Shown here: positions 8,942 through 11,302 of the stretch, one piece after another | Layout of the letters: each line of letters begins with the position of its first letter | Numbering within the stretch: position 1 is the stretch's first letter | DNA from: a virus | Lineage: Duplodnaviria > Heunggongvirae > Uroviricota > Caudoviricetes | Strand: one strand, 5' to 3' | Length of the DNA stretch: 57,168 nt | IMG/VR virus record: IMGVR_UViG_2537561944_000042 | Program-made: the position numbers and the translations under genes | The notes under the pieces: model-generated | The model's input: the letters and a program-made list of their open reading frames with translations, nothing else | What the model was told of the DNA's origin: nothing | The model's database searches: none

Positions 8942-11302
8942 ATGAAAAGTATGCAATCAAAAACGGGCTCTCCACTCGTTCGAACTGAAGCCGAGCTAGA
9001 AAGCCGGCTTACTTCAGCACTAAACATAGCATTTCCTAACATTCCTCGCGAAGATCTTATCGAACAGCGCCATTTTACCGTTCGGCTAGGCCATGGAACT
9101 TACAAAATAGATAGCGCCGCACACTGGAAAAAATACGGGCGAGCGGATGTTTTGATCTTTCATCGGGAGAGACCACTTGCGGTTATTGAACTGAAACGTG
9201 AAGACCTGACACTGACCCATGATGATTATGAACAGGCTCAAAGCTACGCTAACCAGTTAACACCACGTCCGCCTCTCGTTGTAGTTACGAACGGTAAAGA
9301 TACGCGCGTTTATGACTCAAGTAATGGACAACAGTGGTCGGGTGGACAGGATGCCTCGGCAGCGGTAAACAAGATGCTCGCCAATTCTGCAAAGTTGGCG
9401 GCGGCTGACATGCGCTGGGCTATTGAAGCCTTGATGGGGCGAGAAACTAATGCTTGGGTGCCAGCTGTGCGAGAAGAAACAGCCCGGCTGCTGATTGATA
9501 TAACTGATCAGCCTGGGCATTCAGAACATCCATTTGCCAACAACCTACTTTTTCCTCGCAAAATCACGTCTCTTGTAATTGAATCTGCTGTGATGGGTAC
9601 AGCTTTCACTATCATTGAGGGTGATGCACAAAGCGGAAAAAGCAGTTGCCTCCGTGAAATTTCGCTAAAAACGGAAAGTAGCGATCTTTTGGCTGTCCTG
9701 ATGTTACGAGGTTCCGGACCAGGACTATTTCAGGCTCTGGCCAATCTTTTTGCAGCTGAATTTGAATGGAATTTAACCTCAAATGATGCACGTAACTGGT
9801 TAAGACGAATGTCTAACTGCACTGAAGGTCCATCGCTTATGCTTGCTATCGACGACGTTGAACCAGGCTCCCAAATGGCTACTGATCTTGAGGAACTTGC
9901 GGGTATACGTTTTGGCAACAGGCTGGTGGTTGTTCTGACGACCTATCATGCCAACGCGTTACTGAAAAATCCAAACGGACGAACTCCGTCTGCAATTGGT
10001 AGCCGGTCGAAGGTATTTAAAACATCGCCTATGTCCCTAGATGAATTTAAGCTGGCGCAACAGATTCTCTCGGACCAGCGGATAGTTTTTCAACAGGGAG
10101 CAGAATACGCCGATGACTACCGCTCGCCTTGGGTTCTTCGCACTATTTATGATGACATTGTGCGCAATCATCAATACCAGAAAACGGATCTTATCGCCTA
10201 TCTTCCTCCATCACCCGGTATGGAACTTATAGATGCTGCGCAAAAGAGCTATGAGAGTCAGTATGATCTTCTTCGTTATTATCGGGTTCTTGCACGCTGC
10301 GCACTAGCTGACACAAACTCCCACTCAGTAGAATTAATGTTTGCTAAAGCGAATGGATTTGTCGTGCGGTATGACGCACTTTCTGACGAAGCTCGTGGTG
10401 TAGTGAATGAGTTAAAACATATGGGGGCAGTTCGTATTTTTCGCCTTTCAGGATGGGAAGATGTTGTGGTGCCGACAGTTCCCGCAGCTTACCTTCTGGA
10501 ACTGTCGGATGCTGTTTGTGATGAACTGGTTTTACGGGCAGAACAAGACCCTCAAGACGCCGGGGCTTGGCTTGGCGAACGGCTAGACGCCACTTATCTT
10601 GGAGATATGATCGGTGCTCAAGCCATACGCCGTATGGCAGCTAAAGAGAGATATTTCAGCTTTGGAATTATTCAGGGCCTTCTCAGCATTGAGCCATATA
10701 AAGAACCTATAAAAAACGGATTGTTTACTTTAGCCATGCCAGACAACCAACAAGTCAATCTAAAGATTGAGGATGGATTAGCGTGGATTTCTAAACACGG
10801 GGATGATGCAAAGAGTGTTCTGGTGAATTTAGAGGATCAAATCCCAAAGGTCATTTCTAAATCAACCAGTTGGATGATACTCGGGCAACTAGCGAAACTG
10901 CCGTCAGCAGAGGTGGGTGACGATGATCAGCGTATAGACGCCTATATTTTACTGAGCATTGGGCGCTGCCCATTTCCTCTAATTCGCACGAATATAGAAG
11001 GATTGCCTTACTTTGAGCATAATTTTGGCGATCAGGGTGATGTTCTTTGCCTAGAAAAAGCGTCTATTGAAGTTGCTACTCAGGCGATGGCTGATTTATT
11101 TTCAGCCCCATGGCTCTATGCGGACCAGTGGGTGGATACAGCTATCGCGACCGGTTCTATACATTTACTGCATCGTTTGTTTGCTGCTTTAAACACAGTG
11201 ATATTGCGTAGAATACCCGTGCAATCCGACTGGGCTAATGAAGCACTTAATCAACGTGTCTCACCAGCCCTTAAGGAAGCCATACGATCATTATCTTCGT
11301 GA
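8942..11302 (+). CDS. PD-(D/E)xK nuclease (HsdR_N/Mrr-like) fused to P-loop NTPase; candidate antiphage defence protein of unknown family
   Basis: 786-aa ORF; N-terminal motif ADVLIF...VIELKRE...QAQSYANQ...VVVTNG; Walker A GDAQSGKSS (nt ~9619..9645); Walker B LMLAIDDVE; ~450-aa C-terminal region unassigned. Confidence 0.75.
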   Translation: MKSMQSKTGSPLVRTEAELESRLTSALNIAFPNIPREDLIEQRHFTVRLGHGTYKIDSAAHWKKYGRADVLIFHRERPLAVIELKREDLTLTHDDYEQAQSYANQLTPRPPLVVVTNGKDTRVYDSSNGQQWSGGQDASAAVNKMLANSAKLAAADMRWAIEALMGRETNAWVPAVREETARLLIDITDQPGHSEHPFANNLLFPRKITSLVIESAVMGTAFTIIEGDAQSGKSSCLREISLKTESSDLLAVLMLRGSGPGLFQALANLFAAEFEWNLTSNDARNWLRRMSNCTEGPSLMLAIDDVEPGSQMATDLEELAGIRFGNRLVVVLTTYHANALLKNPNGRTPSAIGSRSKVFKTSPMSLDEFKLAQQILSDQRIVFQQGAEYADDYRSPWVLRTIYDDIVRNHQYQKTDLIAYLPPSPGMELIDAAQKSYESQYDLLRYYRVLARCALADTNSHSVELMFAKANGFVVRYDALSDEARGVVNELKHMGAVRIFRLSGWEDVVVPTVPAAYLLELSDAVCDELVLRAEQDPQDAGAWLGERLDATYLGDMIGAQAIRRMAAKERYFSFGIIQGLLSIEPYKEPIKNGLFTLAMPDNQQVNLKIEDGLAWISKHGDDAKSVLVNLEDQIPKVISKSTSWMILGQLAKLPSAEVGDDDQRIDAYILLSIGRCPFPLIRTNIEGLPYFEHNFGDQGDVLCLEKASIEVATQAMADLFSAPWLYADQWVDTAIATGSIHLLHRLFAALNTVILRRIPVQSDWANEALNQRVSPALKEAIRSLSS

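What the first reader, a model, noticed from the sequence alone, without database searches (positions are those of the whole stretch)
8942..11302. 786-aa PD-(D/E)xK nuclease / P-loop NTPase fusion of unknown family: main candidate for an undescribed defence protein
The N-terminal ~120 aa carry the full motif set of the HsdR_N/Mrr restriction-endonuclease fold (D in ADVLIF, ExK in VIELKRE, QxxxY in QAQSYANQ, VVVTNG), which I read directly from the translation. About 100 aa further on are a Walker A (GDAQSGKSS) and a Walker B (LMLAIDDVE). The remaining ~450 aa match nothing I recognise. It is far smaller than the nuclease-STAND (Avs) proteins and has no helicase motifs. It sits in an IS-rich island next to an integrase, which is the usual context for antiphage systems.
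Basis: partly seen in the sequence, partly recalled or inferred. Interest (0 to 1): 0.85.

Follow-up and report, generated by a model that had tools for sequence, protein, structure and literature searches.

The report
Compact nuclease-STAND (Avs-like) defence candidate
This intact 786-residue E. coli gene fuses a DNA-cutting domain to an NLR/Cdc6-type ATP switch and a short sensor, the same plan as known bacterial antiviral STAND (Avs) receptors, so it is probably an untested phage-defence protein of a familiar kind, not a new type of system.

Summary
ORF 8942..11302 (+) encodes 786 aa with an HSDR_N-type PD-(D/E)xK nuclease (Pfam above cutoff; D69, E83, K85, Q98, Y102 ≥99% conserved) and Walker A/B motifs (K233, D304).

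No PADLOC, Pfam or NCBIfam model covers the full length, and I found no paper on it. The family is large (330 clusters at 50% identity with E ≤ 1e-30), has a fixed architecture and lies in defence islands across Proteobacteria with no universal partner gene.

Most likely mechanism (inferred): trigger binding to the C-terminal module and nucleotide-dependent oligomerisation activate non-specific DNA cleavage. Novelty: new variant of a known kind. Interest is moderate.

The parts
8929..8933 (+). Shine-Dalgarno-like GAGGA, 9 nt upstream of the ATG
   Evidence: Read directly from the sequence.
8942..11302 (+). Complete gene, 786 aa plus stop. Identical to WP_000839828.1, annotated 'type I restriction enzyme HsdR N-terminal domain-containing protein'.
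   Evidence: P0001, 100% identity.
8987..9331 (+). N-terminal helix plus PD-(D/E)xK nuclease domain of HSDR_N type (residues 16-130). Catalytic D69 (9146-9148) and E83-x-K85 (9188-9196); Q98xxxY102 motif.
   Evidence: Pfam HSDR_N_2 and HSDR_N above cutoff. Residues ≥99% conserved. It is the most conserved module, at 0.43 mean identity to the query.
9332..9538 (+). Helical linker (residues 131-199), including the strongly conserved segment 153-172 (MRWAIEALMGRE..W), which the model places with pLDDT below 50.
   Evidence: Its role is unexplained; it could be an autoinhibitory or oligomerisation interface (inference).
9539..10027 (+). P-loop nucleotide-binding domain (residues 200-362). Contains the pre-P-loop h-P-R206, Walker A G227-K233-S234 (9620-9643), an ISM-like extra helix with R284/W286, and Walker B hhhhD304 (9836-9853) with no conserved second acid.
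10028..10477 (+). Helical lid domain (residues 363-425, with L364..E368-F369 and G386...R394-x-P396-W-x-L-R400) followed by a winged-helix domain (residues 426-512).
10478..11299 (+). C-terminal putative sensor (residues 513-786): a short HEAT/TPR-like alpha-solenoid (513-583 and 709-786) interrupted by a beta-rich insertion (584-708). It is acidic (net charge -13) and is among the fastest-evolving parts, yet homologous across the whole family.
7282..8298 (+). Upstream 338-aa ORF with a hydrophobic N-terminus. It is linked to the gene in E. coli only and is probably not part of the system.
   Evidence: No Pfam, PADLOC or NCBIfam hit. Found in 243 E. coli genomes vs 236 for the gene. No homologue beside family members in 23 other loci.
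11479..12618 (+). Frameshifted IS3-family transposase directly downstream (island context).
14035..15252 (-). Tyrosine integrase of the argW island, a pseudogene here because of an internal stop. It is intact and adjacent to tRNA-Arg in strain DA33135.
   Evidence: No tRNA is present in this window.

Best explanation
The gene encodes a single-polypeptide, Avs-like (antiviral STAND-like) defence protein with three functional parts. The first is an N-terminal PD-(D/E)xK DNase effector of the HsdR-N type. The second is a central nucleotide-binding oligomerisation module (NBD, helical lid, winged helix) of the STAND/Cdc6 assemblage. The third is a short acidic C-terminal alpha-solenoid with a beta insertion that acts as the sensor. 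Proposed mechanism (inferred): the resting monomer is autoinhibited. An infection-specific ligand, most likely a phage protein, binds the C-terminal module. This allows ATP-bound NBDs to oligomerise, which brings nuclease domains together into active dimers that cut DNA indiscriminately, stopping the phage and probably the infected cell. Because only the first Walker B acid is conserved, nucleotide binding, not rapid hydrolysis, is probably the switch. What is shown: the domain composition, the conservation of catalytic and nucleotide-binding residues, the fold, the homology of the NTPase to Avs4 and Cdc6, the fixed architecture, and the defence-island context. What is inferred: defence activity, the trigger, oligomerisation and abortive infection.
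Against: There is no experimental evidence of phage defence for any member, and no paper on the family was found. No Avs or other defence HMM in PADLOC v2 matches beyond the nuclease domain, and no curated STAND Pfam model reaches its cutoff. By sequence the NTPase is as close to Cdc6/ORC as to Avs: HMMER gives Cdc6 0.0016, ORC1 0.007, SeAvs7 0.04 and Avs4 1.7, and hhalign to Cdc6 gives 90.9%. The post-WHD module is only 275 aa and is not a long TPR array. Neither the effector nor the sensor is swapped anywhere among the top 150 representatives or in 118 aligned sequences, unlike many Avs families. The best C-terminal fold matches are the DNA-binding HEAT-like glycosylases AlkD2 and AlkC. The gene is IS-disrupted in O26:H11 strain 11368 and frameshifted in L004, so it is dispensable.
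Confidence: 0.6

Rival explanations
1. A DNA-sensing, restriction-like enzyme. In this reading the Cdc6/ORC/MuB/TnsC-like AAA+ module, its ISM-like helix (R284/W286) and the winged helix load onto or polymerise on foreign DNA, for example particular ends, structures or modifications. The HEAT-like C-terminal module helps read the DNA, and the nuclease then cuts. No phage protein trigger is needed.
Confidence: 0.15
2. The protein is one component of a multi-gene system and needs a neighbouring gene. In E. coli that would be the upstream 338-aa membrane-like ORF. In a beta/gamma-proteobacterial subclade it would be the abutting DUF5623 protein, and on Agrobacterium Ti plasmids the overlapping Hypoth_Ymh gene.
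For: The 338-aa ORF co-occurs with the gene in E. coli (243 vs 236 genomes). The DUF5623 gene of about 460 aa ends 13 nt before the homologue in 6 loci from different genera, and its divergence tracks that of the homologue. The Agrobacterium homologue overlaps a Hypoth_Ymh gene by a few nucleotides.
Against: None of these neighbours is shared between clades. L009, L010 and L018 sit inside the DUF5623 subclade but lack that gene. The E. coli linkage involves ≥99% identical DNA, so it reflects one recently spread island and not co-evolution. A 643-bp gap separates the 338-aa ORF from the gene.
Confidence: 0.1
3. It is not an immune protein. It could be an addiction or stabilisation module, or a DNA-processing factor, of integrative islands and plasmids. 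Alternatively it could be a decaying remnant of a type I restriction R subunit, as the database annotation suggests.
For: It is carried on mobile islands and large conjugative plasmids beside TA modules. It is annotated 'type I restriction endonuclease' in Agrobacterium records. It is disrupted by IS or frameshifts in some genomes.
Against: There is no SF2 helicase motor, and the NCBIfam HsdR equivalogs score 22 and 10 bits against cutoffs of 550 and 729. No HsdM or HsdS lies nearby. The family keeps a constant length of about 780-800 aa, with invariant catalytic residues, across 330 clusters at 50% identity with E ≤ 1e-30. That indicates strong purifying selection on the whole architecture, not decay.
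Confidence: 0.07

Closest known systems
Avs1-4 / AVAST nuclease-STAND receptors (e.g. EcAvs4 8DGF, SeAvs3 8DGC) and the newer nuclease-STANDs Avs7 and Avs8 (PD-λ-4)
   Same: A single polypeptide with an N-terminal restriction-endonuclease-fold effector, a central NBD-HD-WHD NTPase and a C-terminal helical-repeat module, located in defence islands. The NTPase profile aligns to a true Avs4 at 92.6% probability with shared IPR, GKS, IDx, LxDxE and RxP motifs. Foldseek aligns 816-822 columns to Avs4. SeAvs7 is the best Avs hit by sequence, at E 0.04.
   Different: It is half the size or less. The post-WHD module is 275 aa instead of ≥400-1000 aa of TPR, and it carries a beta insertion. No PADLOC Avs or PD-λ-4 HMM hit was found, although PADLOC detects the Avs4 in L019 at 1e-109. 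The effector and sensor never vary. The trigger is unknown and defence is untested.
Avs5 (SIR2-STAND; EfAvs5 9JAP, AVAST5 filament 9NC9)
   Different: The effector is SIR2 (NAD+ depletion), not a nuclease. Avs5 activates by filamentation (PMC11897194, title and abstract). No sequence-level match was found.
Cdc6/ORC1 AAA+ replication initiators
   Same: These are the best sequence-level matches to the NTPase among solved structures (E 0.0016-0.007; hhalign 90.9%). They share the NBD-lid-WHD order, the pre-P-loop P-x-R motif, an extra helix between α2 and β3, and a sensor-2-like Arg at the corresponding lid position.
   Different: Cdc6/ORC proteins have no nuclease and no C-terminal solenoid. 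Their Walker B is hhhhDE, whereas here it is hhhhD-G. They load helicases at origins and are not encoded in defence islands.
Type I restriction enzyme R subunit (HsdR, e.g. EcoR124I 2W00)
   Same: The N-terminal PD-(D/E)xK nuclease domain with D...ExK and QxxxY motifs.
   Different: The SF2 translocase motor, the helical and C-terminal domains and the HsdM/HsdS partners are all missing. Only the nuclease module is shared.
Novel STAND clades nSTAND3 and nSTAND5 (Pfam PF20720, PF25199) and AAA_16
   Same: Weak matches to the NBD in some family members: AAA_16 at 4e-6, nSTAND3 at 3e-4, nSTAND_NTPase5 at 0.07.
   Different: All are below the gathering thresholds, so this is not a member of those curated families.

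Membership tests
PD-(D/E)xK nuclease, HSDR_N type | Profile match to HSDR_N or HSDR_N_2 above the curated cutoff | tested here: met
   PF13588 at 39.3 bits vs 25, and PF04313 at 36.1 bits vs 25.1.
PD-(D/E)xK nuclease, HSDR_N type | Catalytic D...(D/E)xK triad and QxxxY motif conserved | tested here: met
   D69 99%; E83, K85, Q98 and Y102 100% in 118 sequences.
Type I restriction enzyme HsdR subunit | SF2 (DEAD/ResIII plus helicase-C) translocase motor following the nuclease | tested here: not met
   No helicase family hit. NCBIfam HsdR equivalogs score 22.4 and 10.1 bits against cutoffs of 550 and 729.
Type I restriction enzyme HsdR subunit | Adjacent hsdM and hsdS genes | tested here: not met
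   None in the window, in the E. coli islands or consistently in 23 other loci.
STAND NTPase superfamily | P-loop NBD with Walker A and B and a conserved Arg about 20-30 residues upstream of the P-loop (hhGRExE-type) | tested here: met
   h-P-R206 (100%) lies 27 residues before K233. GxPLxGK[ST] and hhhhD304 are present. The same IPR motif aligns in Avs4. Cdc6/ORC share this motif (from my own knowledge of these families).
STAND NTPase superfamily | NBD-helical domain-winged helix tripartite core (plus HD2) | tested here: met
STAND NTPase superfamily | Sequence membership in a curated STAND family (NACHT, NB-ARC, AAA_16, nSTAND1-6) | tested here: not met
   Only sub-threshold AAA_22, AAA_16, nSTAND3 and nSTAND5 hits.
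STAND NTPase superfamily | Closer to STANDs than to the sister Cdc6/ORC AAA+ clade | tested here: inconclusive
Avs / AVAST (types 1-5, Avs8/PD-λ-4) | Match to the family HMMs used by defence annotators | tested here: not met
   PADLOC v2 hits only the nuclease domain, through RM models. Positive control: Avs4 in L019 is detected at 1e-109. Newer DefenseFinder models were not available.
Avs / AVAST (types 1-5, Avs8/PD-λ-4) | Effector-NOD-sensor tripartite single protein | tested here: met
Avs / AVAST (types 1-5, Avs8/PD-λ-4) | Large C-terminal TPR-like sensor (≥400 aa in the 2026 survey's definition) | tested here: not met
   The post-WHD module is 275 aa, a solenoid plus a beta insertion. The survey excluded sensors shorter than 400 aa.
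Avs / AVAST (types 1-5, Avs8/PD-λ-4) | Phage-protein-triggered oligomerisation and anti-phage protection | not testable with these tools
   This needs plaque assays, trigger screens and biochemistry.
Cdc6/ORC AAA+ initiators | Walker B hhhhDE, Arg finger and sensor-2 Arg | tested here: inconclusive
   Walker B is D304-G with no conserved E. R347 is only 74% conserved. R394 (99%) sits where sensor 2 would be, but within an RxP motif that Avs4 shares.

The most novel reading that the evidence does not exclude
This is a minimal NLR-like immune receptor of about 790 aa whose short, acidic solenoid-plus-beta-insertion sensor and invariant architecture reflect a recognition mode not yet described for Avs proteins. 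One possibility is sensing of a universal basic ligand, such as a phage DNA-binding or packaging protein. Another is Cdc6/MuB-like ATP-dependent assembly on foreign DNA, with the conserved but unmodelled linker helix (residues 153-172) acting as an autoinhibitory latch. In either case it would represent an evolutionary intermediate between Cdc6/ORC-type AAA+ proteins and antiviral STANDs.
Probability: 0.15. Interest if true: 0.7.

Novelty: new variant of a known kind. Interest (0 to 1): 0.45.

Why it matters
If it proves active, this would add a widespread family to the bacterial NLR-like repertoire. The family has at least 330 clusters at 50% identity with E ≤ 1e-30, is found across Alpha-, Beta- and Gammaproteobacteria and on Ti plasmids, and is present in 4% of complete E. 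coli genomes, including STEC O26. Its compactness makes it easy to handle experimentally. Its small size, fixed architecture and position on the Cdc6/STAND border would suit structural and evolutionary studies of how NOD modules couple sensing to nuclease activation. It falls below the 400-aa sensor cutoff of the largest STAND survey, so families like it may be systematically under-counted. On the practical side, the current RefSeq names ('type I restriction enzyme HsdR N-terminal domain-containing protein', 'type I restriction endonuclease') are misleading. The conceptual gain is limited, however, because the effector-NOD-sensor principle is already established and dozens of such families are known.

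Tried and rejected
- **Type I restriction subunit:** rejected. There is no helicase motor and no hsdM or hsdS.
- **Known defence system:** PADLOC v2 hits only RM-model nuclease segments. No phage homologue was found by tblastn.
- **Obligate partner gene:** all-vs-all BLAST of ORFs around 26 loci found no universal neighbour. The DUF5623 gene is restricted to one subclade. The 338-aa E. coli ORF is linked only within one clonal island.
- **Effector or sensor swapping as a STAND trait:** not seen in the top 150 representatives or in 118 aligned sequences.
- **Looking for the family in the 2026 STAND survey:** the accession and 12 conserved peptides are absent from the held supplement text. This is inconclusive, because the file is truncated and holds one representative per clade.
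- **Literature:** searches by accession and by annotation string found nothing relevant.
- **First PDB profile search:** no hits with the less diverse alignment.
- **Regulatory and RNA features:** promoter and terminator scans were not above shuffled expectation. Rfam gave no hit in 6000-16000.
- **DNA-binding C-terminal sensor suggested by the AlkC/AlkD matches:** down-weighted because the module is acidic across the family.
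Full report
**1. The observation**

The ORF is real: 8942..11302 on the + strand, ATG start, 786 aa. A GAGGA ribosome-binding site lies 9 nt upstream of the start.

Pfam assigns residues 63-131 to HSDR_N_2 and HSDR_N, both above their gathering scores (E 7e-10 and 8e-9). It gives a weak AAA_22 hit to residues 220-320 (E 0.03) and nothing else. NCBIfam and PADLOC v2 see only the nuclease segment.

**2. Where the window comes from**

The DNA is 100% identical to the E. 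coli O26:H11-type chromosome. The gene (WP_000839828.1) occurs once, always on the chromosome, in 236 of 5,426 complete E. coli genomes, and at ≥99% identity in 235 of them.

In strain DA33135 the island sits at tRNA-Arg (argW, beside yfdC) with an intact integrase. It also carries a complete Shango system (SngABC) next to the 338-aa ORF and this gene. In the window, IS66 elements occupy that position, the integrase carries an internal stop, and a lambdoid prophage (torI onward) follows. No tRNA lies within the window. In the reference strain 11368 the gene itself is split by an IS3 element, whereas in the window it is intact. It retains 39 of the 40 positions that are ≥93% conserved in the family; the exception is A707, where the family has G.

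**3. The family**

The word-indexed search found 194 clusters at 90% identity, nearly all 770-800 aa and full length. They come from Gamma-, Beta- and Alphaproteobacteria and one Acidobacteria MAG. The exhaustive profile search over 1.84 billion representatives found 1,189 hits with E ≤ 1e-3 and 330 with E ≤ 1e-30. Every full-length protein among the best 150 begins with the nuclease domain.

Distant full-length relatives (28-40% identity) are on Sinorhizobium, Pseudomonas, Rhizobium and Agrobacterium Ti plasmids. No relative was found in phage genomes.

Conservation in a 118-sequence alignment at about 23-56% identity to the query:
- **100%:** E83, K85, Q98, Y102, R206, G232, W286, E368, G386.
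- **93-99%:** D69, K233, D304, R284, R394, P396, R400.
- **Most conserved module:** the nuclease, at 0.43 mean identity to the query.
- **Least conserved:** the winged helix (0.22) and the beta-rich C-terminal part (0.21).

The C-terminal module is nonetheless a single homologous domain of constant length (235-287 aa) in all members. Neither the effector nor the sensor is swapped.

**4. Fold**

AlphaFold2 with the family alignment gives pLDDT 82.7 and pTM 0.77. The domain order is:

| Residues | Module |
|---|---|
| 16-130 | nuclease |
| 131-199 | helical linker |
| 200-362 | NBD |
| 363-425 | helical lid |
| 426-512 | winged helix |
| 513-786 | helical bundle, beta-rich insertion, helical bundle |

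**5. Sequence-level tests of the NTPase**

- **Pfam.** No curated STAND model reaches its cutoff. Members give AAA_16 at 4e-6, nSTAND3 at 3e-4 and nSTAND5 at 0.07.
- **HMMER against PDB sequences.** The diverse profile gives Cdc6 0.0016, ORC1 0.007, SeAvs7 0.04 (9N00, identified from the preprint), mS29 0.08, Avs4 1.7 and Avs2 2.4.
- **hhalign against Avs4.** Locus L019 happens to encode a true Avs4 (PADLOC E 1e-109). The family profile aligns to it at 92.6% probability, E 4.6e-7, over 191 columns. The aligned motifs are the pre-P-loop IPR, the P-loop, a single-acid Walker B (IDG in this family, IDS in Avs4), the LxDxE(F) motif and an R-x-P-aromatic-x-L lid motif.
- **hhalign against Cdc6.** The human Cdc6 Walker A-B fragment gives 90.9%, E 1.2e-6.

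The NTPase therefore belongs to the Cdc6/ORC-STAND assemblage, and these tools cannot assign it to one side. The Walker B has no conserved second acid; position 305 is G in 58% of sequences. That suggests a binding switch. The literature reports that Avs4 and bNACHT11 need ATP binding but not hydrolysis (PMC12236752).

**6. Genomic context**

In 23 loci from different genera, no neighbour is universal. Immediate neighbours include AIPR, an MvaI/BcnI endonuclease, Abi_C, NYN, SLOG, Hypoth_Ymh and DUF6685.

A DUF5623 protein of about 460 aa abuts the gene in six loci of one subclade, but three loci within that clade lack it. The 338-aa upstream ORF is linked only within the clonal E. coli island.

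**7. Interpretation**

The anatomy is the effector-NOD-sensor plan of antiviral STANDs (Avs/NLR-like), in a compact form the size of Avs5.

The best-supported mechanism is inferred by analogy with Avs1-4, Avs7 and Avs8. A trigger binds the C-terminal module, nucleotide-bound NBDs oligomerise, nuclease domains are brought together, and DNA is degraded. The acidic charge of the C-terminal module (-13 in the query, about -12 family mean) and the non-basic winged helix favour a protein ligand over DNA.

The main rival is a Cdc6/MuB-like DNA-sensing nuclease. Its support comes from the Cdc6/ORC sequence affinity, the low-rmsd MuB and TnsC matches, the AlkC/AlkD-like solenoid and the invariant architecture.

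**8. Comparison with what is known**

It works like an Avs protein, but I do not file it in any named Avs family. PADLOC Avs and PD-λ-4 models do not match. Its sensor is shorter than the ≥400 aa used to define sensor families in Lee et al. 2026. I could not find it in that paper's held supplements, which is inconclusive. It is not a type I restriction subunit.

**9. Verdict**

This is an uncharacterised but widespread family that forms a new variant of a known kind. Interest is moderate (0.45). It is a good, tractable candidate for experiment, but a specialist would not be surprised by it, given that the 2026 survey already classifies 198 STAND clades as defence-associated.

Noticed in passing
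window 7282-8298 (+): A 338-aa ORF with a hydrophobic N-terminus and no Pfam, NCBIfam or PADLOC hit. It co-occurs with the gene in E. coli (243 vs 236 genomes) but is absent beside family members in other genera. Its function is unknown.
   Followed up: partly
L027 7695-13519 (E. coli DA33135), corresponding to the IS66-occupied stretch at about window 3063-6809: In other E. coli strains the same argW island carries a complete Shango system: SngA E 8e-103, SngB 2e-187, SngC 2e-276. It lies directly upstream of the 338-aa ORF and this gene. In the window that position is occupied by IS66-family elements.
   Followed up: yes
L028 1743-5416 (E. coli O26:H11 str. 11368): In the O26:H11 reference strain an IS3-family insertion splits the gene after about residue 218. 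The two pieces are annotated separately (WP_000839826.1 and WP_000536224.1). The copy in this window is intact.
   Followed up: yes
L005-L008, L011, L019, immediately upstream of the homologue (e.g. L006 8555-9973): A protein of about 460 aa with a C-terminal DUF5623 domain (E 1.6e-31) ends 13 nt before the homologue in six loci from different genera. Its divergence tracks that of the homologue. It has no PADLOC hit and its role is unknown.
   Followed up: partly
window 9398-9457 (residues 153-172): The linker segment MRWAIEALMGRE..W is among the most conserved stretches of the family (A153, A160, L164, W172 at ≥93%), yet AlphaFold models residues 148-168 with pLDDT below 50. It may be an interface that forms only in an oligomer or a complex.
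   Followed up: no
window 1068-2622 (+): Two abutting ORFs (272 and 244 aa) lie in a 37% GC stretch. They are annotated hypothetical and have no PADLOC hit. They may be further uncharacterised island cargo.
   Followed up: partly
window 13001-14000: A very AT-rich stretch (28% GC) of about 1.2 kb has no annotated gene. It lies between the PapB/FocB remnant and the integrase pseudogene.
   Followed up: no
window 14035-15252 (-) and onward: The argW-island integrase carries an internal stop here, though it is intact in DA33135. It is followed directly by torI and a lambdoid prophage, and no tRNA lies anywhere in the 57-kb window. This suggests a tandem island-plus-prophage arrangement at argW.
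   Followed up: partly
L002 10304-11110 (pTi15955) and L019 1826-7000: On Agrobacterium Ti plasmids the homologue overlaps a downstream Hypoth_Ymh (TIGR02391) gene. It sits in an island with AbiE, zeta toxin, an ABC-three-component system and a TIR protein. In a Lysobacteraceae MAG a true Avs4 (1,725 aa) lies 3 kb upstream of the homologue.
   Followed up: partly
L004 9986-12361: The closest non-E. coli enterobacterial homologue (66% identity, Enterobacteriaceae RIT691) is split into two ORFs of 400 and 363 aa. It is probably a pseudogene or carries a sequencing frameshift.
   Followed up: no
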